Below are positions 496-42,100 of a stretch of 64,000 bases of DNA, in pieces; positions within the stretch are counted from its first letter, which is position 1; the number at the start of each line of letters is the position of its first letter. Both the position numbers and the translations under genes were made by a program. The notes under the pieces are model-generated. The model did no database searches, was not told the DNA's origin, and saw only the letters and a list, made by a program, of their open reading frames with translations. The DNA comes from a virus: positions 1 to 64,000 of the IMG/VR virus record IMGVR_UViG_3300025131_000014. The stretch is one strand, 5' to 3'.

Positions 496-735
496 TCTTT
501 ACCTTTATAATATTGTAGTAAGTTAGGCATAAGAGTAAGGAGTAGATAGTAGGCTTTTTATATAGATATTCTGATTTATTATCAGTAGTATTTATTTGGA
601 GGCGTAACCTTAGAGGCGGTTTTAACGAATTCTGTTCTCTTATTGTGATTAGCAATAACTGCAATAAGATGCAAGTTTATAATTGTGTCTTTCTTATTAC
701 ATTTTTTTATTTCTTTACCTTTTAAATCTTTAATT

Positions 736-975
736 ATGAAAAACCGATCATTTAAAGAAGCAATTGTAGTTATGTTTATTATAATTTCTACACCTTTTAG
801 TGTAGTACTTGTAACTAAACTATTTGCATTGTTTGTAGGAGTATTATTCGGTTGGCATCACTATCAAGTGATAGTAGGACAACCAGGTGTGTGGGTTCTT
901 GCAACATTTGCAGGGTTATTTGCACATATTTTATTAGTAACAGCCTATCTAGAAGATAGGTATAATTCAAACTAA
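736..975 (+). CDS. Small membrane protein (2 TM), hypothetical
   Basis: ORF 685-975; ATG at 736 after an AT-rich leader is the more likely start; two hydrophobic segments. Confidence 0.6.
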   Translation: MKNRSFKEAIVVMFIIISTPFSVVLVTKLFALFVGVLFGWHHYQVIVGQPGVWVLATFAGLFAHILLVTAYLEDRYNSN

Positions 976-1145
976 TGGAACGTTATATTAAAACATATTA
1001 TGTTCCTTCTTTTGATAAGATACATAAGTTTACAAACAAACTTGTAGCACTAAAGTATCTTAGAACACACGATCTAGACCGAAGTAGTTTATATATTCAT
1101 AAACAACCTGCACCACCTGTAGGATTTATGTTTCCTTCTAGATAA
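975..1145 (+). CDS. Hypothetical protein, 56 aa (below track cutoff)
   Basis: TAATG coupling; MERYIKTYYVPSFDK... Confidence 0.55.
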   Translation: MERYIKTYYVPSFDKIHKFTNKLVALKYLRTHDLDRSSLYIHKQPAPPVGFMFPSR

Positions 1146-1179
1146 TTTTTATATTTTTCACCTTTAAAAACCGATAATT

Positions 1180-1374
1180 ATGAGTAAAACAACAGTAATA
1201 GATCTGTCTATTAATCGTAGACAAATTACTCTCAAAAGAGAGTGGTATAAAGGACTTGCTTTTGGATTTGTAATTCAAAATGATTACAGAGATGTTGAAA
1301 TAATTTTCATACTTCCTTTTATAGCTATACAGCTAGAAATTGAGAAGTCACCATCAAATGGTAAGTATTTATGA
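1180..1374 (+). CDS. Hypothetical early protein
   Basis: ORF preceded by the TTTAAAAACCGAT motif. Confidence 0.7.
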   Translation: MSKTTVIDLSINRRQITLKREWYKGLAFGFVIQNDYRDVEIIFILPFIAIQLEIEKSPSNGKYL

Positions 1375-1487
1375 TTACGATCAAGAATAAGTATTTGTAT
1401 TGGGTAGTAGTTATTACATTATTTGTGATAGCTAACCCAATAACGATACTTGCTTTATTTTTATATGGAGCAAGTCAAGGAATGTAA
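1371..1487 (+). CDS. Small hydrophobic peptide, 38 aa
   Basis: ATGA overlap with the previous ORF; YWVVVITLFVIANPITILALFLY. Confidence 0.5.
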   Translation: MITIKNKYLYWVVVITLFVIANPITILALFLYGASQGM

Positions 1488-1523
1488 GTTATAATATCGT
1501 AACTTTATAAATTATAAATAACT

Positions 1524-2260
1524 TTAGGTTCTGTGAAGATACAGGACACTGAGGGGATGAAATATGCGGTTTAGCGCGATAACTCTAGCAATAGAGTATA
1601 AAGACACTGCGAGGGTTATAGAGCTCTTTCTTTGTTGCCATAGCAATATGGTCAATCTAAACACATGAGTATACAGGAACAATGGGGAAATCCTTAGCGT
1701 TTCTATTTTGATGCCCAATCAGAATTGAGTCAGCGATGACAATAGATATACTTGTAGGGGTGGTTTCGATCAGATTTTATCAGTCTAGGAGGAGTACACT
1801 TCAGTACAACGATATGCTCTTGAGTATAACTCTGTACCGTGATGTTGATAGCATTACAAATAACAGTTAAGTATTTTGTTCTTCAAAAGAGAATGAAGCT
1901 TATCCAAAGGAGCTGTTATTCAATTGGGAAGTCTTTCAAAAGAAAGCAAAATTACTTTGGCGTTATTCATCGAAAGATGGCTAATACTATGCACTTCGGT
2001 GAACATAGTGCTTCAGTTACTCGCAAGGTAGCTGTTGTTTGGATCAGAAAGGTCAAATATGAGGTGGCCGCCTTATAATTGAACTAATTATGATTTGAGT
2101 AGGTGATGACGTTAAGAATGATTGGCTTTACCAATCGCCATTGGCAGTTACTTTGTGCAAACAGAGTGGATATGTTAGTAACCACCTTGACAGGATGGAA
2201 TAAGCTAATTAAAGACTGACCAGATAGGGCTGTAATCTCAGGCTATACCTATCACTTTTT
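1524..2260 (+). ncRNA. Large structured ncRNA, probably GOLLD-type (~730 nt)
   Basis: GC-elevated gap between genes. Hairpins CATC-GAAA-GATG (1968-1979), CAC-TTCG-GTG, CAGTTAC...GCAA...GTAGCTG (2014-2034) and GATTGG-CTTTA-CCAATC (2120-2136). 3' GTAATCTCAG (2232-2241) before a T-tract resembles my recollection of the GOLLD 3' half. Confidence 0.65.
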
Positions 2261-2286
2261 TATTATTTACCTTTAAAACCGATCAA

Positions 2287-3744: not shown

Positions 3745-4383
3745 ATGATTATGAAAAAGTGGATAATAGAATTTTTAATATCTCCTGTAGTATTTAGCAT
3801 ATTAGCTACAATATTTATACTATGGGTATTATCATTTACAGCTTGTGGCTGTAAGAAAAGACCTGCTACTCCAATATTAACTTCTACTGTTAAGATGGAT
3901 CAGGCATTAACCTACGCAAAGGAAAATAAAATGGATACTACGGTAGCTATTTTTGTAGATTTTAGTCAACCTGCTTGGATGCAGAGAATGTCATTAGTGG
4001 ACTTACAGGCTAAAACAGTTTTAAGTAAAACTCAAGTTTCTCATGGAATGGGATTAGAGTTTAGTATTAAACCTCGTTTTAGTAATGTAAAAGAAAGTCA
4101 TTTATCTTCATTAGGTAAGTATAAAATAGGTGACAGAGGATGGAGTGTATGGGGTATCAATATAAAATATGTACTTCATGGACTTGAAAGTACTAATGAC
4201 AATGCTTTTGATAGGAATATAGTATTACACTCATGGGAAGTAATTCCTGATAATCAGAGAGTAAGAAAACCTAGGTCTGCTGCTCAAGGTTATGGATGTC
4301 CTGCTGTATCAAATGCATATATGCAGACATTAGATAAAGTATTAAGAGGTAGGAAGAGTGTGCTTTTGTGGATCTATAAATAG
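3745..4383 (+). CDS. Membrane-anchored murein L,D-transpeptidase (YkuD_2-like)
   Basis: N-terminal TM segment; VSHG, FSN...SSLG, LHGLE..NDNA..RNIVLH and catalytic GYGCPAV motifs. Confidence 0.85.
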   Translation: MIMKKWIIEFLISPVVFSILATIFILWVLSFTACGCKKRPATPILTSTVKMDQALTYAKENKMDTTVAIFVDFSQPAWMQRMSLVDLQAKTVLSKTQVSHGMGLEFSIKPRFSNVKESHLSSLGKYKIGDRGWSVWGINIKYVLHGLESTNDNAFDRNIVLHSWEVIPDNQRVRKPRSAAQGYGCPAVSNAYMQTLDKVLRGRKSVLLWIYK

Positions 4384-24198: not shown

Positions 24199-27100
24199 CT
24201 AGTTTGCCATTTTTGTGTGGGTCATGTAATGGAACTTGTAATACTGGTTTCCTAAAGGAATTAGTTCAAGTGTTTCTTTAAGTAACTTGTTATGACCTTT
24301 TCTTACTCCTGCTTTATATTGTCCTTCTCCCATTAATTGCTGTATTATTGCTTTAGGCATATCTACAAGAATATCTGATAATGTTCCAATAGCAGGAGCT
24401 GGATTTCCTTTTGTCATTTGTAACATAGCATCAGGATTAATAAAGAAGGTTACTTCTGTATTTACTCTAGTGAATGTATTAAGCAGTAAAGTCATTCCCA
24501 TATTCATATAAAGTTGTTCTTCTTCATCTTCATCTTCAAATTCGATTTGTCCTAATAAGAATAAAGCAATGGCTAAAGCTGCTACAAAGTAGATCTCCGC
24601 CATATTTTTTCTCATATTGATTTTATCTACCTCATCAAGATTTTCAAATTCAGAAGCATCTTTTCCTATTAACTGTAGGCCAAACTGTTTAGCCATAAGT
24701 GTTGCAAATCCCATAGCTCCTGATTTTTCAAGAGCTGTTCCATAACTTCTCCAAGTTCCTTTAGTATATCTTTCTAAAGCTTCATCCCATCTCTGGTCTT
24801 CCCATCTATCAAACCATAATTCAGGAACCCAAGATCTGAACTGAAATAACATTCTTCCCAGAACATGTTTTTTACCAAGTATAGGTGATTTTCTGTCATA
24901 GTTACCATGTATTCTTCTAGCTGTTACATCAAATTTCATTTTAAATTTAAGCCATGCGGCACTTCCTTCTTCTGTATCAGAGAATTTATCCCATCCTTCA
25001 TTATTCTGAAGAGGAAATTCTTTAGCATTCCATTCTCCATTTTCATCAAAAGCATCCCATAATGGTTTTTCTTCTCCTTGGTTATTTTTTACTTTATTAA
25101 AGTGCATCATTGCTACTAGTATCTGTCCATATACAAAGAATTCTGATCTTTCCTGTAAGAGATATAACCAATTTCCACTTCTGGAGTCTTCGGATCCATA
25201 CATTGATTCTACTACCTGAGCAAGACCATCAAAGTTTGCCATAAGAGCTCTTACTTTCTTTCCTAGCTGTGTAGGAGCATATTTACCACCATTTATAGTT
25301 GACCCCATCATTGTAGTAAAAGCTTTTCTTGCATTACCAGGTGTGAATTCTGATTTACCTGCGGCATGTCTGAATACTGCAGATGTACCAAATACTAAGT
25401 TAGCTGTAGCTGAAAACCAGTTAAAGCCCATACCAAGAGCTTGTGTATAGGTTATTAATGCATTACCTATACTTTGTCCTGTTACTGGTCTTTGAAAGAA
25501 AGTTTTTAATGCATCTTCATATGCTTCTCTATTTTCATCTGTTATATCAAGCATTGGATCACCCTTCTTATTTGTTTTCCTAAACTTTTCTTCTTTGTTT
25601 AGTTCTGCATAGATGAAACTTTTTACCTTTTTTGGAAGAGGTTTAAGTGAGTTCTTATAGTTATCATAAGCTTCAGTATACGGTATATCATTAGCTAAGT
25701 CTTTTTGAAAGGTTTCAACAGCATCTTTTATTACTTCAAATTGCTGTTTAGCTTCATTTCCCATAAATCCTTTTTGTTTACCTAATATTTTTACAGGAGT
25801 CCCAGGTTCTTTAGTCATTCCATATAGAAGAGCTTCTATTGTATATTGTAGTTGTGCTTTAGCTCTTACGAGTCCTTTTTCTGCCTGCATAAGATCTCCT
25901 TCAGTTCCTTGTTTTTGTTTTTTACCTGATTGAGTTTTAGTCGCTGCTTTAATAGTTCCAAGTAATCTATTAGCTAAAAGAACTTGTGGTTCTACTCTTG
26001 CTTTATGTCTATAATTTGTAGCCATAGCTGCAAAAGCTTTAAGAATCTTACCAAGATCATAACTTTTTTGGTTAGGCATTAAAGTTTCTCCTGTCATCCA
26101 TAAAGGAATAGAAGGCATAGCTTGTCCTGTTGCAGTTTCTATAGTTCCGTATTCTATTTCAGCTTCTACACTATCTGTAAGAAGTGATACCATACTATTA
26201 TTAGCACCTGAAATAATTCCTCGGAGAGCAGAATCACTATATTTTTCTGTGAGATCTTTTACAAGATCAGGAATTCTATTCTTTTTTATATCGCTGTTAT
26301 CTGGAAGATACGCCCAAAACTTTTCCATACTATTTACATAGAAATCATAGAATTCTTTTAGCTCTGGAACTTTCATTACTTCTTCAAACTCTTTGTTCCA
26401 ATGTTTGGCTGCAGGTACTGATGGAACATAGCGACTAGCAAAATTGTATTTAAGGACAGCCCCACTTGGAATTTTTCCTCCTGATGTAAGGCTATTAAAA
26501 AGTTCATTATAGATAAAAGGACTGTTTTGAACATCCCATTTATCTCTAGCTGCTTCATATGCTCTTAGATCAAAATTACCGTCTTTATCTACAGATATTA
26601 CTTTTAAATCTTCTATTATTTCTGTTCTATTTTCAACAAACTTATTGAAAAGAGTTTTTTGTTCTGTTAATAGAGCATCTATCATTTCAGTAGCTACTTC
26701 TCTTCTTTCTTCATTTCCATCTACAAGCTTTTCTATAAGCTGTTCTCTATATTCTTTTCTTTGCTGAGCTGTAGTTGGTGCTTGTTCAATTCCTAAGTCT
26801 GTTTTTCGTGGATCATATATTTCTTTACCATCTATAAGCATACCAATATCGATAGCTACAATATTTTCTTTTTGCCATAGCATATGCTTTTTATAAGCAG
26901 CATTAGAAGGTCCTACTCCTTTTACACTATTGATATGATTTCTTTTTTCCCATAATTTTTGAAAATAAGAACGGTTGATTCTACTAAGTAAATTTCCTGT
27001 AAGTTCTCCATTTTCATCTTTTTGGGCAAGCTTGTCAAATTTTTCTTTTATATTGCCTGGTCCTATATTAAGTTTTTCAATTGCTACGTTTATATCTTTA

Positions 27101-30100
27101 ACATGACCTTCAAATTCATTACTAGCTTTTATAATAGCCTGTTGTAACCATTTATCTACAATTCTTACTATTGGAACTTGAGAAGAGAAAGCACCTCTTG
27201 TTTGAGCTGCAAATGCTCCTGTATCAAACTGAGGTCCAAATATATCTTTCATGGCTAAGTCTAATCCTGCAGATGAATTAACCATTTTTCCTATTATTTC
27301 TCTAGCACCATGTGTCCATCTTGTTTCTAAATCTTGAAGTTGACTAGCAATATCTCCAAAGTTATATCCATGAAATTGTGTTTCTCTGGTTACTCTGTTC
27401 ATAACCCCTTTCCAGGATTTAATTATTTTAATTACTGAGTCAAGTTCAGAAAGATTTCCTCCTTTATGCAAAACTTTATCTGCCCAGTCTAGCTGTTCTT
27501 TTGCTATTTTAAGTGTTTCAACTGAAGTTTGTTCTCGTAAAAGATCATCTCTTTGTTCTTTTATTTTAGCTATTCTTGCTTCTAAAGGAGCAACTGGATC
27601 TTCTCCTTTGTTTTCTAAAGAACTTGCTCTAGTAATACTTCTTTCAAGATTTTTTATTTGATTGTTAAGCGAATTAATAATGATCTGTGTAGCTGAGTCA
27701 AGTTCTCTTTTCTTTTTTCTTTGTTTTTGCGGCATCGCATCAGTACTGTAATCGCCTTCAGGTCTTTCATCAGTTACTACTATAATGTAACCTCTGTTTG
27801 AATCTGGAAATACTTTAGCAGTTACACCAGGATTTTCAGCTTCGATCTGTTCAGCTCGGCTATTTGCTGTTGTAATAAGAGTAAATAGTTTCTTTCCTCC
27901 GTGTCTATTAAGTAAGCCATAGCCTTTTTCTATATTATATAAAGAAAGATTTCTTATAGGAACTTCTTTTGCTTTAGGTTTTTGAGCATAGAATACTTCA
28001 CCTTTTTTAGTAGCTATTCCTATTTTTCCTGTTACTACAATAGGAGTTGCAAGTTTATTAACAGTTCCTTCTTTTATAGCTTTCTTTATAAGTTCATTAG
28101 AATACTTAGGACCTACTCCTTCAATTGTTGATACAGTAATATGAGGATGTTTAACTTTAGATTGTGGATTTTCTATAATAAGTGCCTGACCTTTTTCATC
28201 TTCTACAGTTGCTATTACAGTTAAAGGTATTTCTTGTGTATAAGGTAATGAGTTTATAAGATCTTGATCGGGCATAAATTGAATTGTAGAATGATGCATA
28301 TGAACATTCTTATGTTTTGCTGGAAAAGTTTCTAAGAGAGTCTTATGTACTTTTTTAGAAATAAAGACAGCAGCATAAAGAGCATCTTTTTTAAGTTCTC
28401 CTAATGATATAGGTGCTTCTTTTTTAGGCATATCATCCTTTCCCCAAGCTGCATCTAAGAAATCATCTCCCATCATATTTCCATCGATACCTGCATCTGA
28501 AATAGGATCATCTGCTTTGAGTTCTTTAAAAGGTAATATACCTTGATCTAAATTTTTATATGTAACGTTTTTATTTAGTTCTTTAGTTGCCCATTGCTCT
28601 AAAGTTATAGGGTTTTTTATAGTCTCTCCTGCTTCTCTTTCTCTGTCTAGATATTCTGCCAATACTGCATCCATATAGTCAAAAGCATCACTTACTGCTC
28701 CTACTTCAGGCCATTCCAGTATATCTACTATCTGTTTATTAACAGGTGTTTTATTTGCACGTCCTAGTGAGCTAAAAGTTCTCATATATGTATACATACC
28801 CTCACCGTAAAACTCATCAATATGTGTTAGCAGAGCCTCCCATTCTGTTGGCCATTTTTCTTTAGGTTCTTTATATATAGGTAATGCACTTATAATATTA
28901 CCTACATTCAATTGGAATTTGTTTTTGTTTTCTGCTGCTATTAGTACATACTCTGTTTTTAGAGTAATTTTTTCGCCATACTTGTCTGTTACTTCTATTT
29001 CTTTAGGAAGTCTTTCTTCTATTCTTTGTCCTTCTGCATTTGTATAAGTTTTGTTAAGTAATGTATCTTTTGGAGTAGGATCATAAACAGAATCCCATTC
29101 TTCTGCTCTTTTAGTCATATCCAAATATTTATTCAATCTGGATATTGGTTTTTCTATATCTTCTGAGGATTTATATTTTGGAGCCAATTCTGTATAATGA
29201 ATCCAACTCCCACTTGGTATATAAGCATTTTGGAAATATTCGCCAGGAATAAATTTACCATCATATTCAGTACCTTTTGTTTTAAGATATTCTTCCAATT
29301 TCTTGTTGTCTGAATCAAATTCTTCTTTAAACTTCTTGGCTATTAAGGCATCAATTATAATTCTCCCAACACTAAGGTCTGGTTGTCCTCCAAACTCTTC
29401 AACTATCATTTGAGATGCGCCAGGTGCTGCACGACCAACTCCTTCATCCCATGTCCCTCTATGTTCTATTATTTCCCCTTGTGCCTCATTATTAAATTTA
29501 GCAGCTATAAGAGATTCAATAGACATATCTTTATATTCTTTTAATTTCCCTTTTACATAATCTCCTATAACACGTTCATATTGTACTAAATCTTTATCTT
29601 TTTCATATTTATATTCCTTAATGGTATATTTACCTTTTTTAATCTTAATCTCTTTTTTAGATACTATTTCATCCCATGCTTCGAATTTTAACTGTTTGAT
29701 TATTTCTTCATCTGTTATCTCAATTATTTTACCTTTATCTGCAACTCTTTTACTAGTGCCTGATTTGCTTCTTGTAGCATAATCCAATGCTGTGTCTAAA
29801 TAAGGAGTCAAAGAAACCCCTGTTGTTTTGCCTCCAAAATTATCTTGTGCAAAAATTGTTAAGTCTCCGTTCTTATCTATTTTATATTGAGATTCAAGAG
29901 ATACGCCCCTATATACCTTTTTCTGTTTCTGAGCAATTTCTTTAGGATTCTGATTATATCTTACTTGTTTTTCTTCTTCAGTAATCGCAGGCACTTCTTC
30001 AATATCCCCTTTTTTTATGTTTTCTGTTTTTTTGACTTTAACACCTTTAACCCCACTACTTTGTTGTGTTGGTTGAGTGGATTCTAATTCTTGTTGAGCT

Positions 30101-33100
30101 AATATTAAACCTTCCAAGAATGCTTGGTCTATTAATTGATTTGTGTTATGAGTAAAGCTCTCATACTGCATTAACTTTTTAGCAGCTTCTGAATTAGAGT
30201 TTTGTTTAAAAGACTCAACTACAAGTTGTTTCATTAAACCTAAACTATCTGTTTTTTTCATTTGTGCAACAGTACCTTTACCTCTTATTTTTTTCCCATA
30301 TCCTCCAATCCCAACATATTTGTTATAAGTAGCTTGATCAAAAGTACCAGACTTATTAGATTGATAAGCATGTTCTACACTGCCGTATTCTCTACCTTTC
30401 CAAGTAAACTCTCTTGGAGCTAGATTAGATAAAATTTTGGTAGAATATTCAGACTCAGCTTGTCCCCAGTATACATTAATAGTTCCTTTCTTTTCAACCT
30501 CACTAGTTTGTTGTGCTGGTCCAATATTTAATTTACCAGTATTAAACCATTCTTTACTAAATATAATATTAGAAGGAATAGGTCCAGCAGCATTAAACAT
30601 ATCAATCATTTCTAATCCTGTGTAGCCATTTAAAGATGCTTTAGTAGTATTTCTGTACGCTACTTTAAATTGTTTATTAGGATTAGCTCTGGCAGTCTCA
30701 TATAAAGATTTAATAGATTCTGTAATTTGTTGAGGAGAAATAGATTTAAGACCTTTATTTTCTTTTACTCTTAAATCTTTCGTAGGTAAAGCATAAGCAT
30801 TTCCTTGTAATCCTTCTCCTTGTCCATACTTAGCACCAAATTTATCTTTAGCTTTTTTAGCTGCCCCTGCACCATGCCTACCTTCTGGATTACTTCCAAA
30901 TACAAATATTGTATTTTCTTCAGGAGTTATATCGCCCTCATAATATTGAGCGACCTCTTCTTTTACCTCTATATCACTGTCTTCTGGTACTATTGTAGGG
31001 TCATTAAATCCATATTCTTTATTAAGTCTATCAGCTATAGCTCTTTGGAACTCAATCATTCTTTCTTTAAACTCTTTTTCTCCTCCTTGATATCCAGTGT
31101 CTCTTAAAATGTTATTATATGCCTCAAGTTCTTCTAGAGTAAGTGGAATAGCGTCATAAAACTTTCCTGTTCTTCCTGTACCTCCCACAGCTCCAACACC
31201 TCCGTCTCTTTCAGCTTGGCCATATCGCTCAATTCTTGCTTTTCCGTGTAGTCCTGATCGTAAATTTATTTTTAATTGGTAAGTATTATCCCAAATATTC
31301 TTTATAGTCTTTTCAGGATACGTACCTAAGTAAAGATCAGGAGTTACAACACGATCAACAAATTCACTATCTTCTACAATATCGGCTGCATCCTTATAAA
31401 ATTCTTTTTGGGCTCCTACTAAGTTAAGTGTTTGATTAAGAGCAGCTTCATAAAGACTTTTATCTTCAAATGTTTCAGCTAAAGGATTATCCTTTTTTAA
31501 GGATCCAACTAAGTCAGCAAGTAAGCTTAATAGTTTTTCCCATATATTTTTACCTTCTTCATATCCTTTAGGTATTTTATGGGATAACATAAATGTTCTT
31601 AATCCTTTAGAGGCTGAAATTCCTGCTGTAAATTCATTTACTGGATGATTAATAGAAACAAGAGGGTATATATATGTTGATTCTGCCCATGTTAATGTTT
31701 GATTATTAATAGATTTTTCTTTAACTCTTATAAAGTCTGCTTCAGTAACTCCGTCTTTACCAAATAGCTGGGCCAATGTAACAACTTCTTCTGTTGTATC
31801 CTCACCTTGTAAAACTCGTGTATCTGGTGATGCTGCTATTAGAGCGTCTTTAGTATGTGTAGCTAATTTAATAAGTTGATTAACAATTTTCTTTGTTTCT
31901 GGTGAGGCAATGCCTTTCCTGACTTGATTTATAGCTGCTAAAGTTAAGAAGTGTGTTAATTCATGTATAATAATAGTTTCTTCTAAATATCTTTGATTTT
32001 CAGGAGCAAGTTCACTTGTCCATCCTGTATCTTCTCTTTTAAAACTAACCTCTGCTAGTGTGTATTCTCCTTGGTCATTAAAGCTGCTTCGAAACACTCC
32101 GCTTGATATTGGACCTTTTGTTCCATTAATCTTAATAGTTACTTTAATATTTTGAGGAAGTGTTTCTATAACTTCTTTATAAGCAGTGGCCATTTTTTTA
32201 TGATAGTCACTATTAGAGTTAAATCTAATATCCTCTAACATTTCAATAATTTGTTCTTTTTGATTTTTTATACCTTTGGTTACTTCTGTAATTGAGGGGT
32301 CTTCTGACGGGTCTTTGCCTAAATTATCTCCTACTAACTTTAATCCACTATTGAAAGTATTGGGTGGAGGTATAGTGTTTTCTCCAGAAAGTTCTACTAT
32401 TTCTTCTGGAAGATTTTCTGTATTAAGACTTATTGCTATAGGATCGTTAGGATTGTACTCACTTTCTTGTCTGGTTCCTAATGTGCTTATTCTTCTATAT
32501 ACAGTATATCCTAGAGTACCTTCTTCTTTTTCTTCTCCCATTTTTTCATAAAGTTCCCATCTGTTGGTCTCGTTATTTCTAAAAGAAAGAAAGTGAGCAT
32601 AAAACTTTCCTGGGCCTAAATTACCTAATCCTTCAATTGTTGTTATAAATTTTTCATTTTCTGTAGGAATTTCTCCATCAATACTTTGTCCTGCAGTAGT
32701 ACCTTTAAGTTTTATATACTCTTTTCCTTTTATTTGATTTTTTTTATCAAATGAACTGATTTTTGTAGTTCGGTAAGGTTTATGCTGAAAGTACTGTCTG
32801 GTAAAATTAGTAGGATTTTTATAATAGAAAGGATTTGTTAATGGTTGTCCTAATATAAAAGTATCAAGAAGTGCAACATTAGAAGCTACACTTCTTATTG
32901 CTTCAGGATAACCAAGGTCCATCATTACAGGATATGGAATTAGTCTAAAGAAGTTTCTTGGACTTTGTGTGCCTCCTGTTGCATATGTATATTTTATAAG
33001 GTCATAGGCTAGCTTTTTTAAAGAAACGGTAGCTTCAGCACCATCTGTATAAGGGACTTTTTGATCAGTTTGAGACCATGCAAAGAATTCTCTTACCAGA

Positions 33101-36100
33101 TCAGGCTCCTCTATTTTTTCATTTCCACTTGCCATATATTCAAGACGGGAGGGTGTATTTCCGATATCTTCTGATAAACGAGGGTAAAGTCTTTTTAATA
33201 GTTTACTTCTTTTCCCCCATTCTGTTTGTTGAAGAGCTTTTACTCTTCTGGCTAATGAATTTCTGGCTAAAACTATTGTCGTTTTGCCTTCTTCTTCTTT
33301 TCTTTCTTTTACTTCATCATATAAAAGTCTTTTTCTAAGGTCTTCAAGAGATTCATCAGGAAAGAGCTGGTCAAATACTAGGGAATTTAGGTATTGTTTT
33401 AGATCTGTAAATATTTCTGCTTTTCTATCAATATTCATAGAAGCTATTCCTCCTAATTCTCCTATACTATTAGTAGCTTGCATGAAAACAGGAGATTCAT
33501 AGGGATATAATTCTTTAAATAATTGAGTAGCAAGTACTTCTCCATACATTGCAGATGCTCCTATTAGTCCATTAGGATTGAAAATAAACACATCACCATT
33601 TGGCTGTTGATTTAGTTCTCCTATTATCTGTTCAGTTCCTTTTAGATAGGTTATCCCTTCTCCATCCATAACATCAACTAGTTTTTGTTTTAGCTCTAAT
33701 GCATTTAACATTGTTTTTCCTGGATGTCTTAAAGGTTGGTTAGTATTAGTTACATTTTGGGCGGCTGAAATATCTTCTCCCATTGTTTGGATTACATTTA
33801 ATGCTTCTAGTATCTTTAATTGGTCGTTCCAATAGTTATCTCCTTTATTTTCAGGAGCTGTACCAATCATTTCTTTCATTTCTTTTAAACTAAAAGTATC
33901 ATCAAGATAGTCTTGAGGATAAAGTTTATCTGTGTCTTCTGTTATTTGACCATTTTTTTTGATCATTTCTTTTACTTCATTAAATGCTTCTTCACTAGCT
34001 TTTACCCTGCCCATTATTATATCTTCTGTAACTTTACTTATTTTAGTAGTGTAAGCTTTTACCCACATATGAACTGCCTCTTGATTTGCAAAAGTTCCCA
34101 CATATCTTTCATCAAAGCCTTGAGAAATCATGGCTAAAGCTATTCCAAATGTAGAACCGCTCATATTTAGCTTATGAAGATCCTGATCATTACCATTATC
34201 CATACTGGCAGACTGGAATCCTGATGATACATCATTTTTTGTACCTTTTCTAGATACTAGTTTGACATCGGATACTTTATTTCCTTCATATATTTCTTTA
34301 CCATCATCAGATTTAAACTTTATTTGAAGTGGTACTAAAAGTTTTCTTTTGGAATTTTCAGGATCTGTTATTACTTGCTTAAATTGTGTATCTACTGTTT
34401 GAGCTAATGCAAGATAAGTATTGAATAAAGAGAAAACACCCATTCCAGTTTGTCCGTCTTTGTTAATAAAGAAGAAGTCTCTTTGAGCTTTTGGTGTAAT
34501 AAAGTTAGGTAAAGCTTCATTTTTATTTTTGAGGGCTTCAAGTTCTAATCCTATTTCTCCTATTCTTATTTTTCCTTCATCTAATGGGGTTAATCCTTTT
34601 ATTACTGCTTCAGGAGTTGACATTACTTCATTATAGATCTCTATTACCTGATTTTGAAGGCCTTTCATAGATTCTCGTAGTTCTGCTTCTAACTCATCAA
34701 TATTTTTAATTGCCTCATCTATTGTTTTTCCTTCTTCTTCAGCTTTCTTTCTCTTTTCTTCTTTCTTAATTAAGAGATCTTCAGCATGTTCTTTTGAAGC
34801 ATATTTAACGATTCTACCGTCTTTAGTGACCCATGTCCAGTATTTATAGGTCCTTAGTTTATCTACATCAAAGTCAGATCCCATTTGAGTTACTATCTCA
34901 TCAGGTACTATTGCAAGATCTCCCATATATTCAGGTAAGAATCCCACTATTTCGAAGCCTGCCATACTACTATGACCTTGAAAAGGTATTCTAAATCCAA
35001 ATAGATCAAGAACATCACCACTAACTTTATCGCTATCAAATACTACTTTACCGTTTTCATCTTTTTTAGTATAGTCACTTATTCTTAATATTTTTCCATT
35101 CCCATCTTTAACGGTCCATGGTACTAATATTTGTGCTTTTTGGACTTTATTGTCTTTAGTTAGCATATAATTTAGTCCATCTTCTGGATTATATCCTGGA
35201 GTCCATACAATATCAGATTTATGAGAATTAGAAAGTTCATTAAACCCTCTAACTCCTTTAAAACCTACATTTGATCCTTGTATATAAGCATTTCCAGGTA
35301 AAGTAGATTTAAGTATTTTATTCTTTATAAGAGAAAGAACTAAAGGTTCCATTCTAAAAGATGACATATGAAATCCTAATGGTAATTCAAATTGTGTATA
35401 ACCATCAGTTAATCCTAATGCCATAAGATCATTAAGAGGATACCCTCTATCCATTGCCTCTTCTACTAGTATTTTCCTAAGTTTTCGTAAATCTGTTATT
35501 TGAATTGTTTCTACTTCTTTCCATACATCAGGTTCAACTTCTATTTCCTTTTTTACCTTTACAGCTTTTACTGATGTTAGAAATTCATTATATTTTTTCT
35601 CTAAGATTTTTATTTGGACTTCGCCAAATTTAGTTCGTAAGTAATCAAAGTCAGTACCATTTTTAGATTTTCCAAAAAGGTTTTCAAATAGCATTTTTTG
35701 TCCTTGAGTAGCCTCTCTTATAACTTCTTTAGCTCCCTTATATGGATTTTCTTGTTGTATTTTATAACCAGATCGATCTAGACTTAGAACATTTTTAAAT
35801 TTTAAATCAGAGAGCATATTGCCTTCTTTATCAAATATTGTTTCTACACCTTGGGCTCCTGTTTTTACACCACTTACATATATTAATGCATCACCACCAG
35901 CATCTTCTAACCCTAATAAAACATTTTCTATTTCTAACCCTTCAACTACTTGAGGAACTAAAGGAAAAGCAGATGTTTTTAAGTACATAGTAATAGCTGC
36001 TCTTGTAGTTTGTTCCATTTTAAAACCTGTGTATACAGGTTTAAGAGGTTGTAAAATAACATCTTTCATCTCCATATCAGTGTACTTGGATTTTTCAAGT

Positions 36101-39100
36101 TCACCTCTTGCTTGGGTTTCTGCTGTTTTGTCTCCTGCTTTTTTAGCGGCTATAATTTTTTTAAGAGCCGCTAATTGCTTTTCATACTTGTCAGTAAGTA
36201 CTTGAAAGTCTGTATCAGATATTTTACCATAAGCCATCAAATCTGTCAGATATTCTCCCATTGTTGTTAGCATCTGAGCATCTGTTGATTCAAATCCAGT
36301 ATTAGCTCCATAAGCTTTTCCAAGTTTTTTTGACATTGCTGTCATTTGAGCAAGATTTTTACTTGCTACGTCTCTATCATTTGCTATTACTATATTAAAA
36401 TGATTAGCTCTTCTGTGGTGTACTGAACTATTAATAATAGCTGGATTATGCCAATATCCTTTTGTTCCGCTTGCTCTTACTTCACTTAATCTTTTATTAA
36501 GATTGGCAAATGTATTGATAAGAGTATCTTGGAATGTTCCTTTCTTAGCTTTCTTATAATAAAAAGCAGGATCACCACTCATTACTTGGAACATTTCTTT
36601 ATGAGCAAACATATAATTAACTACATAATCAGCTGCTGCTGCTTTTATCTTACGTCTATTAATTGTATCAACAGTAAATCCTGGAGTATTTGTGTTTCCT
36701 CCAAGTGTTTCTCTGTTATTAAGGCTATTCATATATTTCTCACTAAAACCTGTCATCTCCCATATATATGTGATTTGTCCATTTTTTTCTTTAGAAGTTC
36801 TTTTGAACATACCCATTGTTTGCCAGTCTTTTACTTGTTCATTTATTGCAGCAATAATATTTCTTGCTATAACACTTTTTATACTAGCTTTTTGTTCTTC
36901 TCCTAAAGGGATTATTATATTTCCTTCGCCATCCCAAATAGAAGTGGTTATATCACTTTGATTTTCTTCTAATTGTTCTTTATTAAGAAAAGGAAACATT
37001 ATAAATTTATCTCCTCCATCTTTATAACTGTTAACTTTATTTCTTTCTTTTTCAGAAAGTGTTTGGAAAGACTTTATTCTTAGCATTTCTGCTTCATATA
37101 TGTCATAAAGTGCATCTAAAGCTTCTTCTTCAAGTCCTGCAATTTCTTCTACGTCTTTAACTTCATTCCAGGCTATTTTAACTTGTTTTCTTAATGCATG
37201 GATTATAGGAATAACAGTATGTTCTGATGGGGTCATATATAGATACTTGGCTCTTGTTTGATTTCCATGATTTTGAAATAAACCTATTTTGTATATCTCC
37301 ATTTCTTTTGGAGTCATCTGTTCGAGGGCCGCAGCAGTACCTCTTCTTATACCGTGAGATATCCCATCTGCTATTTCTACTCTGAATGTATTTCTTAAAG
37401 ACTGTCCATTTATATATCTACCTTGTCTTTTATTGTATATATCTGTAATTATCTGTTTTTCTTGTTCATTAAGCCCTGGTGGAAGCATATCAGGAGTTAT
37501 TTTTTCTCCTAATGTTAACCTATTAAAAGCTCCTAGCCATTCTGAATTCCATTGAAAAGCCATTTTAGATAAAGTATTAACATATTGTGCAGCTCTTTCA
37601 ATTTCTTGAGGTTGAGATTCTTTTTCTTTAGGCTCATAAGAATCTGCTAAAAGAAGAACTTTTGCTTGTTCTGTAAATTTAGACAGATCAGAATATTTAT
37701 ATAGAAGCTGATTAGTAACATCTCGTGTTCCTGTACCCATACTGACACCTCCTATTTTAACATCTGCTTTTGCTAATGCACGGATCCTTGCAATCTGTCC
37801 TTCTGTAAGATCTCTAAATGGATTTTTAGACTCAAAACTTATAACAGGTTCTACATTTTTTTTAGCAATCCAATGACTTACTAATTTTACTTTATCTCCT
37901 TTTACTTCTTTAACAGTATATTCTTGTCCTTTATAAAGAACAAGACTTCCTCTTATAACAGTTGGTTTAACAAGTAAAGTTTCAAATAAGTGTTTTATAA
38001 ATCTTCCTTGTCCTCCTGAATGTAATAGTGCTGTAGGGCTATCAATGGTTCCACCTATTTGGTTTAATCGCCCTAAAGTAGTTTTAGGACTCATCACTAA
38101 TTTTAAAGCTGTTTTTGCACTAAGTTCTATACCAAGTAATTGTAAAATTTCTTGTGTTTTAGCAGCTACTTCAATTTGAGCTTTTTGGGCATCATATTCT
38201 TCTCCTTTCTTTTGTCGTAAACTTTGAAGAGCCTCATTAGACAGTCTTACATATTCATCATAAATAGCTTTAGCTTTATCTTTTGATATGTATGCTTTTC
38301 CTCCTATTAGATCTATTAGACCATTTTCTTCCATATTAGAAAGAAGGTTTTGTTGCCATTTCTCTACTAAAAGATTTACATCGTTTTGTGTGTCTCCACT
38401 AAAAGTTAAGATCTTTGATCCCTTATTTGATCCATCTACATTTCTATTAGGAGTAAATTGTGCTACTACCCTAGTTACTTCTGCTTTTGAAGGGAAAGCT
38501 ATTACAAATTGAGATTTTAGTTGATTGGGATTTTTAACATTTTTATCTTTATCTAGATGCATTAAATAATTAACAAGTGCTCCTATTTGAGCATTACCTG
38601 TATCTAATGCATATTCTTTTAGTACTCTTACTATACTATTGAAATCTTCAGGAGTTCCTACTAATATGTTTAATAGGTTATTATAAAGATCTTCATAATT
38701 TACAAAAGTATCTAGTCCTAGATAATTCTTTTCTTTTATATACTTAACCTTACCATTTACTTTTTCTACACCTGTAATTTTAGAGAGTCTTGATAAGATA
38801 AGCCTAATTTGCCAAGGAGCGGTCTTTTTGGAATCTGTACGAAGTTTTGCTTTTGAACTGTAGTTTTCTGTAATTCCGTCCTCTATATAGGTTTCATCTT
38901 TTTCCTCTTGGACCCCTTCTTCTAAATCATAGAGATACTCAACAACTCCACTGTCTTGTATTTTTATTCCAATTCTTCCAAGCTTTTCATTTACTACCTT
39001 TTGTATTGCATCAAAATTATTAATCAAAGCTCTAAACTTTTTAGCTCTTTCTTGATTTGCTTCTATATCTGTTGCACCTGCAACATTTTTAATGAGTTTA

Positions 39101-42100
39101 CTTTGAAATCGGTTTATAATATTTCTTATTCTTATTTCTTTTCGTTTTTTAGTTTCACCAGGTCTTTCTTTTGCTGCTTCTAGTTCTTGTTTCATCCCTT
39201 CAAGGCTGAAGGTTTTTCCATTTTTAAGGCCTTTAACTATTTTTTTATAAAGTCCTTCATCTTCTTTAAGTCTTTGTAAAGCATAATCATATAACTGACT
39301 TGCTTTAATGTTTTTGTTACTATTAGCTAAAGTGTCGTAATGATTTAGTACATAAGCATATACACTATCTGATCCTGCAATAAGTTCATCACCTGTAAGG
39401 TCTTTATTTTTTATTCCTGGTAATAGTTTTTCTATAAGTTCATCTAGTTTTTTTGTAGGTTCTTGCTTTGCAGGCATTTCGTCTACATTTTCTAGACTAT
39501 CTCCCCAAATATCAAGTGGAGTAATATCATCATTACCTTCTATTCCATCAAGTATACCTCCATCGCCACTTTCTTGACCATAGTCATCTTCATCTTCTTC
39601 TTCTTCTTCTTCTTTTGTTTTTTCTAGATCTTCCATGAAGTCTGGTTGTGGCCCAAATAGTTCATTAAGAATATCCTCTTCTACTCCGAGTTCGTCACTT
39701 CTTTCTTGATTAGTTTCTTGTTCTACTACTCCTATTTGTTGATATTCTACAGTTGGTTGATCAAAATAGATCCATTCTTTTGTTCCATCAGATAAGGTTA
39801 CTTCTTCTCCACGGAATTTAGATAAAAGGTTCTTTTTTACAAAGGTTTCATATCCTGTGGTTTCATTATTATTACTTGCTTTTCCTTCTATTGAATCTAT
39901 AACATACTCTCCATTCTCTTTTTGAGTTAATATAGGAACGGTAATATTTTTATCTTCTCCTAATTTCTTATAGTTAACAGCAAATTGACTGTTATTTAAA
40001 GCTTCTACTAGCTTATCTTTCTTTTCATGAAAGTGTTCAAGGCTTAAAAAATTCATTGGTTTTGCCCATACATCTTTAATAGTAAACCTAACAGTTAATA
40101 AATTTCCTTCATTATCTGTTCTTATATGAAATTGTCCATAGCCTGTTTTAGCTCTTTCTCCTCTTTCTGCATTTCCATCTTCTGTTGTAAATGCGTGATC
40201 AACTACATATAACTGAACAAACTCTTTTAAAGCATCAGGACTATTAAGAATATCAATTTGTGTCATTGCTTTTATGCCTTTGACTATTTTTTCATTTTCT
40301 TCTCCAATATTTTCAGCTCCCATATGTCCTGCCAACATGAAAATTTCTATTGCTTTGGCAATAGTATTAGCATAAGCTGTTCCATCTACTGCAACTTTTC
40401 CTTTAGTTATAAGATTTTGTATTTCATTAAGTTGTGGAGCCCGTACATAAGCTGCAAAGCTTTGCTTGTCTTGTGGTGTGGGAAGAACAATATATACTGC
40501 TCCGTTAGCTAAATCTTTTCCATTTTTTACATATTCTAAAGAATTCTGTTCAAAGGGAGATTCTCCTCTCATTAATATTCCATTAACTGATACACCTAGT
40601 TTAGCACTTGGTCCTACTACATCTCCTAATTGGGTTTCTTTATATCTACCTGTATGCTCATCTTTTTTATTAAAGATCAGATGTCCTATTCCTTTCTTAC
40701 GTATTTCAATTTCAACTCCTTCCTTTTTTTCAAAGGCATCGAAAGCAGCATTTCTAAAGTCTTGTAATCTTTTAGTTTGTATGGCCCAATTATCTATATC
40801 TAGTTTACGTCCAGTCCAATTAACTACTCTTCTAAATACAAAGTTTGCTAAGGGCACTCCATTGGAGTCAACTTCTACTTTTAGTTTTCCGTCTTTGAGT
40901 GTATATGCAGTACCTGCATCATGGATATACGCAACAGGTTCTCCATTCTTGTTTTTTATAACAAGAGGAGTTCTCATTCTTATTTCTTCTTCTGTAGGAT
41001 TTTCTTTTGCTTTCCACTCACCAAAGGTCATTTCTTCTCTTTGGCCTTTATCATTTATTATAGTACTGGTAATTGGGACTGAATCTGCTGCGGGATCTAC
41101 TTCTACTGTAAAAGTATCTCCTACTTGAAATCTTGTATGTGATTCAATATCATTATGAAGCGTACTACTCTTCTGATCTCCTGTAGATACTGTTCTAATC
41201 GTTCTAACATCCCCATTATCGTCTACTACTTCTTTAAACTCTCTAGCAAGATAAGCCATAGAAAGAGAACTTACTTTTAAGGTTCCTGTTTGTTCTTGTC
41301 CTGTTTCTGCTTTTGTTAATTGATTTATCTCTTCACTTTCATTAAGGTTATTTGTTTCATGATTATCTATATCTTCTTTTGTCAGATTACCATCTCCAGT
41401 ACTTCCTTTCTCAGCATCTTTATAGTCTGTTTTTTCTTTAGGTGTAAATTTAGGGGTAACATTTGGATTATCTTTAGGATCTGGAGTATTGTCAGCGGCT
41501 GCTTTATTAGTTTTTTGGACTTTATTAGCTGTATCTTTAGCTGTTTGAGCTCCTTCTTTTTTTGCTGATTCAAGTTTTTCTTTTCTTTGTTTTTCCAGGT
41601 ATTTTTCCATGGCACCAGGAACAGTCATTTCATCATATTCTTTTTGAAGTACTTCTATTCCTAATTTCTGTGCTTTAACTAAAGCTTTACCATGTACTAT
41701 CCCTGTATATTCTTCCCCTGTAAGTTGAGCAAATTCTTTAAAGCCTTTCATTGCATCAAGAAGTTGTTTACTTTCTCCTTTTTCCCATCCTTCAGTTTTA
41801 GACTGGAAAATCTTATAGAGTTTATGAACAGCTCCAAGAGATTCAGGATCTAACTCTTTTAATAGAGCATCAGCTTCAACTGGATCTTTTTCAGCTTCTA
41901 GTATTTTTGCGGCATAATTTTTAAATACATCCATTATTACACCAGCATGCTTTTCAGCATTTTCAGTACCTTTATCTATCTTATCTTGGATGTGTTTAAG
42001 AGTTTTAGCTCCTGATTCATTTATACGAAGTCCATGTTTTATTCTAACATCTTTTCTAGCTTTTCCTCCATCTTTACGATATGTAGAACCATCTTCAGAT

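What the first reader, a model, noticed from the sequence alone, without database searches (positions are those of the whole stretch)
1524..2260. Probable giant ornate ncRNA (GOLLD-type) in the early region, with no tRNA nearby
Seen: ~730 nt without a credible gene, dense in GNRA/UUCG-capped hairpins, ending in GTAATCTCAG and a terminator. Established: GOLLD RNAs are large phage/prophage RNAs of unknown function, often near tRNA genes. The family assignment is from memory of 3'-half motifs. Here the element lies among small early membrane-peptide genes and I see no tRNA in the window.
Basis: partly seen in the sequence, partly recalled or inferred. Interest (0 to 1): 0.75.

Follow-up and report, generated by a model that had tools for sequence, protein, structure and literature searches.

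The report
GOLLD giant RNA in marine phage
The gene-free stretch is a true member of the known GOLLD family of giant phage RNAs (shown elsewhere to build hollow RNA cages), here in an uncultured marine crAss-like phage with no tRNA genes; a correct call and a new member of a known family.

Summary
Rfam's GOLLD model (RF02032) matches window 1859-2244 (+) over its full length at 206.5 bits (cut-off 150); it is the only Rfam hit in the window. The model covers only the conserved 3' half. For the upstream 298 nt (1561-1858) I found 16 distinct full-length homologues in marine viral and metagenome contigs. Their 5' domains align, and 42 of 64 predicted pairs show compensatory changes (94% of cells paired against about 40% in slid controls). 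No open frame is conserved.

The conserved RNA is about 1566-2246, followed by a weak stem and a T6 run. 1516-1559 is a separate 44-nt hairpin module.

The host record is a 90.3-kb, 97%-complete marine phage related to crAss-like phages and Flavobacterium FpV4, with no tRNA in the whole genome. Its relatives carry an 83-nt tmRNA-like minihelix, or a tRNA-Met, upstream of GOLLD; this phage has none. Contigs from four marine metatranscriptome runs lie only inside 1563-2242.

The clade lacks hairpin P21b (so does mycobacteriophage PegLeg) and keeps a GGCC palindrome in loop L21a. Cage formation is inferred from the published structure, not shown here.

This scan had already noted GOLLD on other phage DNA, and in this genome next to a Hatchet/Pistol ribozyme island, which I confirmed.

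The parts
1478..1515 (+). 38-nt block kept at 97% identity in the nearest relative (G002), where more distal upstream sequence has diverged. Candidate promoter or leader of the GOLLD transcript; contains TATAAT at 1490-1495.
   Evidence: Alignments. No good -35 element was found, and the block is not repeated elsewhere in the genome. Promoter function is inferred, not shown.
1516..1559 (+). Separate 44-nt hairpin module in the leader. It sits exactly where relatives G002 and L289 carry an 83-nt tmRNA-like tRNA-like domain.
   Evidence: Fold z = -3.7. It is 93-95% identical to a module in another ORF-free stretch of distant relatives L092, L284 and L256. Junctions are shown.
1566..1858 (+). GOLLD 5' domain, about 293-298 nt and at least 12 helices. 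It is specific to this marine phage clade at the sequence level.
   Evidence: Alignment A3 of 14 homologues. RNAalifold predicts 64 pairs, 42 with compensatory changes. 94.2% of cells are paired against 38-46% in slid controls; 0 of 500 shuffles reach the observed score.
1859..1920 (+). First long hairpin of the conserved 3' region (Rfam model positions 1-62; UCAAAAG loop).
   Evidence: cmscan alignment.
1921..1950 (+). Short internal linker, the shortest in the clade, with no tRNA inserted. It corresponds to the variable linker that is disordered in the published structure.
   Evidence: About 34 model positions are deleted in the cmscan alignment. Clade comparison. Linker description from PMC12286853.
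1951..2246 (+). Rest of the conserved GOLLD 3' domain: the AAAGCAAAA...CGAAAG...CUAAU pseudoknot region, UUCG and GCAA hairpins, the P21a hairpin with loop UGGCCG (about 2052-2067), and terminal loop GUAAUCUCAG (2232-2241). Hairpin P21b is absent.
   Evidence: pseudoknot strands 1962-1971 and 2102-2110 covary.
2223..2261 (+). Terminator-like end: a 6-bp stem GATAGG/CCTATC around the L27 hairpin, then T6.
   Evidence: Conserved in L119, L289, L309 and L014. Other clade members have a UUCG-capped hairpin or a classical terminator (L038) at this place. Not called by the scan.

Best explanation
Window about 1566-2246 (+) is the gene for a GOLLD RNA, a roughly 680-nt non-coding RNA of an uncultured marine phage related to crAss-like phages and Flavobacterium FpV4.

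Shown here:
- It belongs to the family.
- It has two structured domains: a clade-specific 298-nt 5' domain and the universal 3' domain.
- It is inherited vertically in this phage lineage, always upstream of the replication genes and on their strand.

Inferred:
- It is transcribed from just upstream (conserved block 1478-1515) together with, or ahead of, the early and replication genes, and ends at the stem and T-run at 2223-2261.
- By analogy with the solved GOLLD env-38 structure (a 14-chain D7 cage; Kretsch et al. 2025, PMC12286853), copies of the RNA join without protein into a hollow cage. The 5' domains would form the caps. The 3' domains would form the rings, joined across the equator by a self-complementary kissing loop, here L21a with GGCC.
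- What the cage does is unknown in every phage. My best guess (about 35%) is that it holds or shields parts of the translation or tRNA machinery during infection. The reason is that GOLLD genes sit next to tRNA, tmRNA or tmRNA-like genes in most phages, including this phage's own relatives. This phage shows that a linked tRNA is not required.
For: Family membership:
- 206.5 bits against a cut-off of 150, full-length match. One search gives the same result on the whole genome, with no hits in the control genomes.

5' domain is a real structure:
- 42 of 64 pairs with compensatory changes; 94% of cells paired against about 40% in slid controls.

Not coding:
-.

Lineage and synteny:
- DNA polymerase is 44-93% identical in four other GOLLD-bearing contigs, and GOLLD lies 9-20 kb upstream of the polymerase gene on the same strand.

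Phage type:
-.

Cage-relevant features kept:
- L21a loop NGGCCN in 12 of 16 clade members, with compensatory changes in the stem below it. This matches the published GC/CG-cored symmetric kissing loop B8.
- L27 GUAAUCUCAG is nearly invariant.
- Pseudoknot covariation.

Presence in RNA libraries:
- Contigs of four marine metatranscriptome runs from four studies, 90-99% alike, lie only within 1563-2242. None lies in 1300-1562 or 2243-2500.

Link to tRNA-like genes:
-.
Against: - No experiment or structure exists for this RNA. Multimer formation is inferred from one solved homologue, whose 5' domain is 420 nt against 298 nt here.
- This clade lacks hairpin P21b, whose loop forms one of the three bridges between the half-shells (B9) in that structure.
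- I could not map the 5'-domain helices onto the published P1-P15.
- A search for covariation between the 5' and 3' domains (bridge B7) gave only ambiguous signals.
- No promoter could be assigned.
- The metatranscriptome contigs come from relatives, not this strain. Logan contigs show neither strand nor ends, and RNA libraries can contain DNA.
- The translation-related function is a guess from gene neighbourhood. This phage has neither a tRNA nor a tmRNA-like gene.
Confidence: 0.9

Rival explanations
1. GOLLD here is one module of a long non-coding transcript. The transcript would start in the ribozyme-bearing RNA island that adjoins it across the record's ends and be cut into pieces by self-cleaving ribozymes, or in relatives by tRNA-processing enzymes at the tmRNA-like domain. 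On this reading GOLLD has no promoter of its own. This concerns biogenesis and is compatible with the cage model.
For: - The record's ends adjoin, and the order is colinear in G002.
- A Pistol ribozyme (49.3 bits, cut-off 34.5) and a Hatchet-like match (48.5 bits, cut-off 51) lie 2.5-3.6 kb upstream on the same strand.
- In G002 and L289 the tmRNA-like domain abuts the GOLLD 5' end within 3 nt, as expected for release by RNase P or RNase Z.
- No sigma-70-type promoter was found in front of GOLLD.
Against: - Four small ORFs (685-1487) lie between the island and GOLLD.
- The 38-nt block directly upstream is conserved while flanking DNA is not, which suggests a local signal.
- G001 and G002 show no ribozyme hit within 6 kb upstream.
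- RNA contigs do not extend upstream of 1563 (weak evidence).
Confidence: 0.25
2. The RNA acts as a monomer or in a protein complex, for example as a decoy or sponge for a host nuclease or defence sensor, or as a ribosome-binding RNA. On this reading the cage seen in vitro is not its working form in this compact variant.
For: - The variant lacks P21b and its bridge B9, and has a 5' domain about 120 nt shorter than env-38.
- The published paper cites pull-downs of GOLLD with ribosomes.
Against: - The self-complementary GGCC in loop L21a is kept in 12 of 16 clade members while the stem below it covaries. This is hard to explain without RNA-RNA self-contact.
- PegLeg-type GOLLDs also lack P21b, so its loss is tolerated in the family.
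- The published cage forms at 12.5 nM.
Confidence: 0.15
3. The stretch encodes small proteins: the 79-aa frame at 1839-2078, the 64-aa frame at 1524-1718 (-), and others.
For: Open frames of 34-79 aa exist.
Against: - The frames are not conserved in place, strand or length, even in copies 94-97% identical.
- Substitutions are compensatory in helices.
- There is a full-length match to an RNA covariance model.
Confidence: 0.01

Closest known systems
GOLLD RNA (Rfam RF02032; Weinberg et al. 2009, as cited in PMC12286853), with the solved member env-38 (PDB 9MEE; 14-chain D7 nanocage; Kretsch et al. 2025, PMC12286853)
   Same: - Full-length match to the 3'-domain model.
- L27 GUAAUCUCAG, the pseudoknot, and the GNRA and UUCG hairpins.
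- Two-domain layout with an internal linker.
- Self-complementary L21a loop.
- Phage-borne, from a marine source.
   Different: - About 680 nt against 833 nt; 5' domain 298 nt against 420 nt.
- Linker of about 30 nt, with no tRNA in or near it.
- P21b/L21b (bridge B9) is absent; the L21a palindrome is 4 nt (GGCC).
- The carrier is a crAss/FpV4-like phage without any tRNA.
- Cage formation has not been tested.
GOLLD genes of cultured phages: Caulobacter phiCbK, Roseobacter DSS3P8, Vibrio PG07, Mycobacterium PegLeg (listed in the supplement of PMC12286853; re-scanned)
   Same: - Same 3' domain (151-216 bits).
- PegLeg also lacks P21b.
- All lie in non-coding RNA-gene clusters.
   Different: - Those sit among tRNA and tmRNA genes, and phiCbK has tRNA-Gly inside the linker.
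- The 5'-domain profile of this clade finds nothing upstream of their 3' halves (sequence-only test).
ROOL RNA (Rfam RF03087), the other phage nanocage RNA (8 chains)
   Same: A large ornate phage RNA, often near tRNAs, that builds an RNA-only cage.
   Different: Unrelated sequence and fold. There is no ROOL match in the window.
Abundant early long non-coding RNAs of the cultured marine crAss-like phage phi14:2 (bioRxiv 10.1101/2020.03.07.982082)
   Same: They occupy the same kind of place, ORF-free stretches at the start of the rightward early block of a marine crAss-like phage. They were reported as transcribed from the earliest time point and staying abundant.
   Different: phi14:2 has no GOLLD. 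Its intergenic region gives a tmRNA-like match (46 bits, cut-off 47). The cultured relatives FpV4, FPSV-S29 and Lbo-JY46 have no GOLLD either.

Membership tests
GOLLD RNA (Rfam RF02032) | Score at or above the curated gathering cut-off of the family covariance model, over the whole model | tested here: met
   206.5 bits against 150; E = 6.8e-57; model positions 1-416 of 416; window 1859-2244 +.
GOLLD RNA (Rfam RF02032) | Conserved 3'-terminal hairpin with loop GUAAUCUCA(G) (L27) | tested here: met
   GTAATCTCAG at 2232-2241, closed by GGC/GCC. Nearly invariant in 16 homologues.
GOLLD RNA (Rfam RF02032) | Pseudoknot around the AAAGCAAAA...GAAAG...CUAAU core | tested here: met
   All pairs are formed in the cmscan alignment. 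Strands 1962-1971 and 2102-2110 covary in the clade.
GOLLD RNA (Rfam RF02032) | A second, less conserved but structured 5' region upstream of the 3' region, giving a total of about 700-800+ nt | tested here: met
   298-nt 5' domain; 64 predicted pairs, 42 with compensatory changes; controls. Total length is about 680 nt, at the short end of the range.
GOLLD RNA (Rfam RF02032) | Encoded by phages or prophages | tested here: met
   A 90.3-kb virus record, 97% complete, with phage replication and virion genes.
GOLLD RNA (Rfam RF02032) | Often next to or containing tRNA genes (frequent, not obligatory) | tested here: not met
   No tRNA in the window or the whole genome, and no tmRNA-like domain. 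Relatives have one.
GOLLD RNA (Rfam RF02032) | Both P21a and P21b hairpins, whose loops form symmetric kissing contacts (bridges B8 and B9 of the solved structure) | tested here: inconclusive
   P21a is present with the GGCC palindrome. P21b is absent in 15 of 16 clade members. P21b is also absent in the accepted member from phage PegLeg, so it is not obligatory for membership.
GOLLD RNA (Rfam RF02032) | Assembles into a protein-free homo-oligomeric nanocage | not testable with these tools
   Known for env-38 only (PMC12286853). It needs in-vitro transcription followed by mass photometry or cryo-EM.
   Only GOLLD reached a cut-off in the window.

The most novel reading that the evidence does not exclude
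This is a compact GOLLD lineage of marine crAss/FpV4-like phages of Bacteroidota, with these features: about 680 nt, its own 298-nt cap domain, no P21b bridge, a strengthened GGCC kissing loop, and a minimal linker. It may build a cage of different size or chain number than the solved 14-mer. It may also work without any linked tRNA, as one product of an RNA island that contains self-cleaving ribozymes. In that case the tRNA or tmRNA-like neighbour seen elsewhere would be a processing handle rather than cargo.
Probability: 0.2. Interest if true: 0.6.

Novelty: new member of a known kind. Interest (0 to 1): 0.35.

Why it matters
GOLLD is one of only two natural RNAs known to build closed cages, and its function is unknown. 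This phage lineage adds three things:
- A natural minimal version: shorter cap domain, shortest linker, one equatorial bridge missing.
- A natural test of the tRNA link. The sister phage (93% identical DNA polymerase) has a tmRNA-like domain fused to the GOLLD 5' end, and this phage has swapped it for an unrelated hairpin and has no tRNA at all.
- A 16-member alignment of a complete two-domain GOLLD, usable for covariation analysis and for choosing constructs.

It also extends GOLLD to marine crAss/FpV4-like phages, whose hosts are probably Flavobacteriia. None of this changes what is known about the family, so the finding is useful but not surprising.

Tried and rejected
- blastn of 1400-2400 against 50,697 GenBank phage records found no match.
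- The first pattern scan, AAAGACTG..GTAATCTCAG, gave 15 loci of which only one was a GOLLD. The broader patterns gave mostly chance hits and were triaged with nhmmer.
- The conserved upstream block is not repeated elsewhere in the genome, so it is not a recurrent phage promoter motif. The sigma-70 scan found no convincing promoter, and the number of sites was below the shuffle expectation.
- The idea that 1516-1565 is a decayed remnant of the tmRNA-like domain is rejected. It is a different, well-conserved 44-nt hairpin module found elsewhere in relatives.
- A search for covariation between 5'-domain and 3'-domain segments (published bridge B7) gave one candidate, 1722-1725 with 2093-2096. Both strands also pair locally, and there are only about six independent lineages, so this is not usable.
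- The cultured relatives FpV4, FPSV-S29, Lbo-JY46 and phi14:2 have no GOLLD, so there is no cultured model.
- Motif look-up in the published GOLLD alignment failed because the alignment is gapped.
- No covariance model of the 5' domain was built: at about 300 positions, calibration would exceed the time limit. Structure-level likeness to other GOLLD 5' domains is therefore untested.
- Metatranscriptome contigs give no cover outside 1563-2242. Because the contigs come from relatives whose flanks differ, this is not evidence that the flanks are silent.

Full report
**What is there.** An Rfam scan of all 64 kb at gathering thresholds returns one hit. GOLLD (RF02032) matches window 1859-2244 on the + strand at 206.5 bits against a cut-off of 150, E = 6.8e-57, over model positions 1-416 of 416. 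The same result comes from the whole genome, and the model hits none of 14 control genomes. The alignment shows the family's landmarks:
- the first long hairpin with its UCAAAAG loop;
- the AAAGCAAAA...CGAAAG...CUAAU pseudoknot core;
- the UUCG- and GCAA-capped hairpins;
- the terminal GUAAUCUCAG loop at 2232-2241.

**The 5' half.** The Rfam model covers only the universally conserved 3' region, and the published description says the 5' region is less conserved (PMC12286853). To test the 335 nt upstream I collected homologues. Pattern scans of IMG/VR and of metagenome contigs were followed by nhmmer triage. This gave 16 distinct full-length relatives, all from marine samples, and every one that was scanned with Rfam holds a GOLLD above the cut-off (202-293 bits).
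- Conservation starts at about 1563-1566 and ends at about 2246.
- The 5' domain is strikingly constant in length (288-302 nt in 14 of 16; 319 and 327 in the other two), at 47-67% identity in the more distant members.
- On an alignment of 14 of them (A3), RNAalifold predicts 64 pairs in 12 helices, 42 of them with changes on both sides.
- Counting with controls gives 94.2% of cells paired against 38-46% when the partners are slid by 1-3 columns. The covariation score is 0.61 against 0.18 or less, and no shuffle out of 500 reaches the observed value.

The 5' half is therefore a real, conserved structured domain.

Open frames are not conserved in place, strand or length, even in the copies that are 94-97% identical. 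The whole RNA also folds better than shuffles (z = -3.4).

**Ends.**
- 3' end. Downstream of L27 there is a 6-bp stem (2223-2228 with 2248-2253) that encloses the L27 hairpin and is followed by T6 (2256-2261). It is weak and was not called by the terminator scan. It is conserved in the nearest relatives. Other clade members have a UUCG hairpin or, in L038, a classical terminator at the same place.
- 5' side. A 38-nt block (1478-1515, containing TATAAT) is 97% identical in the sister contig G002, while the DNA further upstream has diverged. It is a candidate promoter, but it has no good -35 element and is not repeated elsewhere in the genome.
- Leader. Between the block and the RNA lies 1516-1559, a stable 44-nt hairpin (z = -3.7). 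It is not part of GOLLD. The same module, 93-95% identical, lies in a different ORF-free stretch 4.8 kb from GOLLD in phages whose DNA polymerase is only 47% identical. Its role is unexplained.

**Genome context.** The window is the first 64 kb of a 90,316-base IMG/VR virus record, 97% complete and 34% G+C.
- Replication genes (helicases, primase, family-A DNA polymerase) follow GOLLD on the + strand.
- The polymerase is closest (31%) to crAss-like phages.
- The 1829-aa virion protein is closest to those of Flavobacterium psychrophilum phages FpV4, Fpv3 and FPSV-S29.
- None of these cultured relatives, nor Cellulophaga phage phi14:2, has a GOLLD.
- Four other GOLLD-bearing contigs share the polymerase at 44-93% identity, and GOLLD always lies 9-20 kb upstream of it on the same strand. 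GOLLD identity tracks polymerase identity, so the RNA is inherited vertically in this lineage.
- The last 447 nt and the first 455 nt of the record are 88.5% identical, and the region is single-copy and colinear in G002. The ends therefore adjoin.
- This places GOLLD at the downstream side of an RNA-rich stretch holding a Pistol ribozyme (49.3 bits, cut-off 34.5) and a Hatchet-like match (48.5 bits, cut-off 51). This confirms what earlier notes of this scan reported for the same genome.

**tRNA link.** ARAGORN finds no tRNA in the window or in the whole genome. The relatives differ:
- L038 has tRNA-Met 160 nt upstream.
- G001, G002, G003, L289, L256, L258 and L027 carry a T-arm motif upstream.
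- In G001, G002 and G003 this is an 82-83-nt element that matches the Rfam tmRNA model end to end, with the 310-nt middle replaced by 18 nt. It has a G3:U70 acceptor stem, a T-arm and a conserved inner loop (44.6-51.8 bits, cut-off 47).
- In G002 and L289 it ends 3 nt before the GOLLD 5' end.
- The window's genome has no such element anywhere. It has the 44-nt hairpin in exactly that slot.
- Cultured-phage GOLLDs also sit beside tmRNA genes (phiCbK, DSS3P8, PegLeg), and phiCbK has a tRNA-Gly inside the linker.

**Expression.** The DNA occurs in at least 14 marine metagenome runs. Contigs from four marine metatranscriptome runs of four studies, 90-99% alike, lie only within 1563-2242. One contig begins at 1575. 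These contigs come from relatives. They show no strand or ends, and RNA libraries can carry DNA, so this is a hint only. In the cultured marine crAss-like phage phi14:2, ORF-free regions in the equivalent position are transcribed early and stay abundant (bioRxiv 10.1101/2020.03.07.982082). There the region gives a tmRNA-like match, not GOLLD.

**How it probably works.** The only mechanistic knowledge is the cryo-EM structure of GOLLD env-38. It is a protein-free 14-chain D7 cage. The 5' domains form the caps and the 3' domains the rings. The two half-shells are held by two self-kissing loops (B8 in L21a, B9 in L21b) and an A-minor contact.
- Here L21a is UGGCCG. The GGCC palindrome is kept in 12 of 16 clade members while the stem below it changes by compensation. 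This fits a conserved self-contact.
- P21b is missing in 15 of 16. It is also missing in mycobacteriophage PegLeg's accepted GOLLD, so the family tolerates its loss.
- The 5' domain is about 120 nt shorter than in env-38. Its sequence profile finds nothing upstream of other phages' GOLLD 3' halves.
- The linker is the shortest in the clade.

I therefore think it most likely forms a homo-oligomeric cage, but the number of chains could differ. Neither this nor the function is shown.

**Verdict.** This is a new member of a known family, a compact marine crAss/FpV4-like phage clade. Its main value is the natural variation it offers for testing the cage model and the link to tRNAs.

Noticed in passing
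L119:6714-6796 (-), L092:5274-5356 (+), L315:6193-6274 (+); absent from the window: An 82-83-nt 'mini-tmRNA' lies just upstream of GOLLD in related phages. It has a tmRNA-type acceptor stem with G3:U70 and a T-arm, and the 310-nt middle of the tmRNA model is replaced by an 18-nt conserved loop (GCAGGGCUUAUUAUGAGCAC). Rfam tmRNA scores are 44.6-51.8 bits (cut-off 47). ARAGORN does not see it.
   Followed up: partly
window 1516-1559; also L092:10991-11034, L256:1894-1937, L284:7417-7460: A 44-nt hairpin module is 93-95% identical between phages whose DNA polymerase is only 47% identical. In the window it replaces the tmRNA-like domain in front of GOLLD; in the others it lies in a different ORF-free stretch. 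Function unknown.
   Followed up: partly
genome 88011-88268 and 89034-89095 (L314:3012-3269 and 4035-4096), just 'before' window position 1 once the record is closed: A Hatchet-like match (48.5 bits, cut-off 51) and a Pistol ribozyme (49.3 bits, cut-off 34.5) lie on the + strand. The record's last 447 nt and first 455 nt are 88.5% identical copies of one region, so this RNA island is contiguous with the start of the window.
   Followed up: partly
window 24199-44142 (-): A single 6647-aa open reading frame, followed by further large virion genes. Earlier notes of this scan read it as the crAss-type virion RNA polymerase polyprotein. I did not examine it.
   Followed up: no
L317:4031-4502 (Cellulophaga phage phi14:2, NC_021806): A full-length tmRNA-like match (46 bits, cut-off 47, E = 6.8e-16) lies in the unannotated intergenic region that was reported as an abundant early non-coding transcript of this cultured crAss-like phage.
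   Followed up: no
L027 and L304 (about 15-60 nt downstream of GOLLD), L294: A tRNA-minihelix-like element (GAAGCA...ACATGAGTTCGATTCTCATGTGCTTCA: acceptor stem plus T-arm, no anticodon arm) lies directly downstream of GOLLD in another branch of the clade.
   Followed up: no
L318, L319, L321 (phiCbK, DSS3P8, PegLeg): tmRNA or permuted-tmRNA genes lie within 0.2-0.8 kb of GOLLD in three unrelated cultured phages. This suggests a recurrent GOLLD-tmRNA neighbourhood in addition to the known tRNA one.
   Followed up: no
window 685-1487 and 2287-2412: Small hydrophobic ORFs (96, 56, 64, 38 and 41 aa) flank GOLLD. The 41-aa ORF is missing in the sister contig G002, where the next gene follows the terminator directly.
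   Followed up: partly
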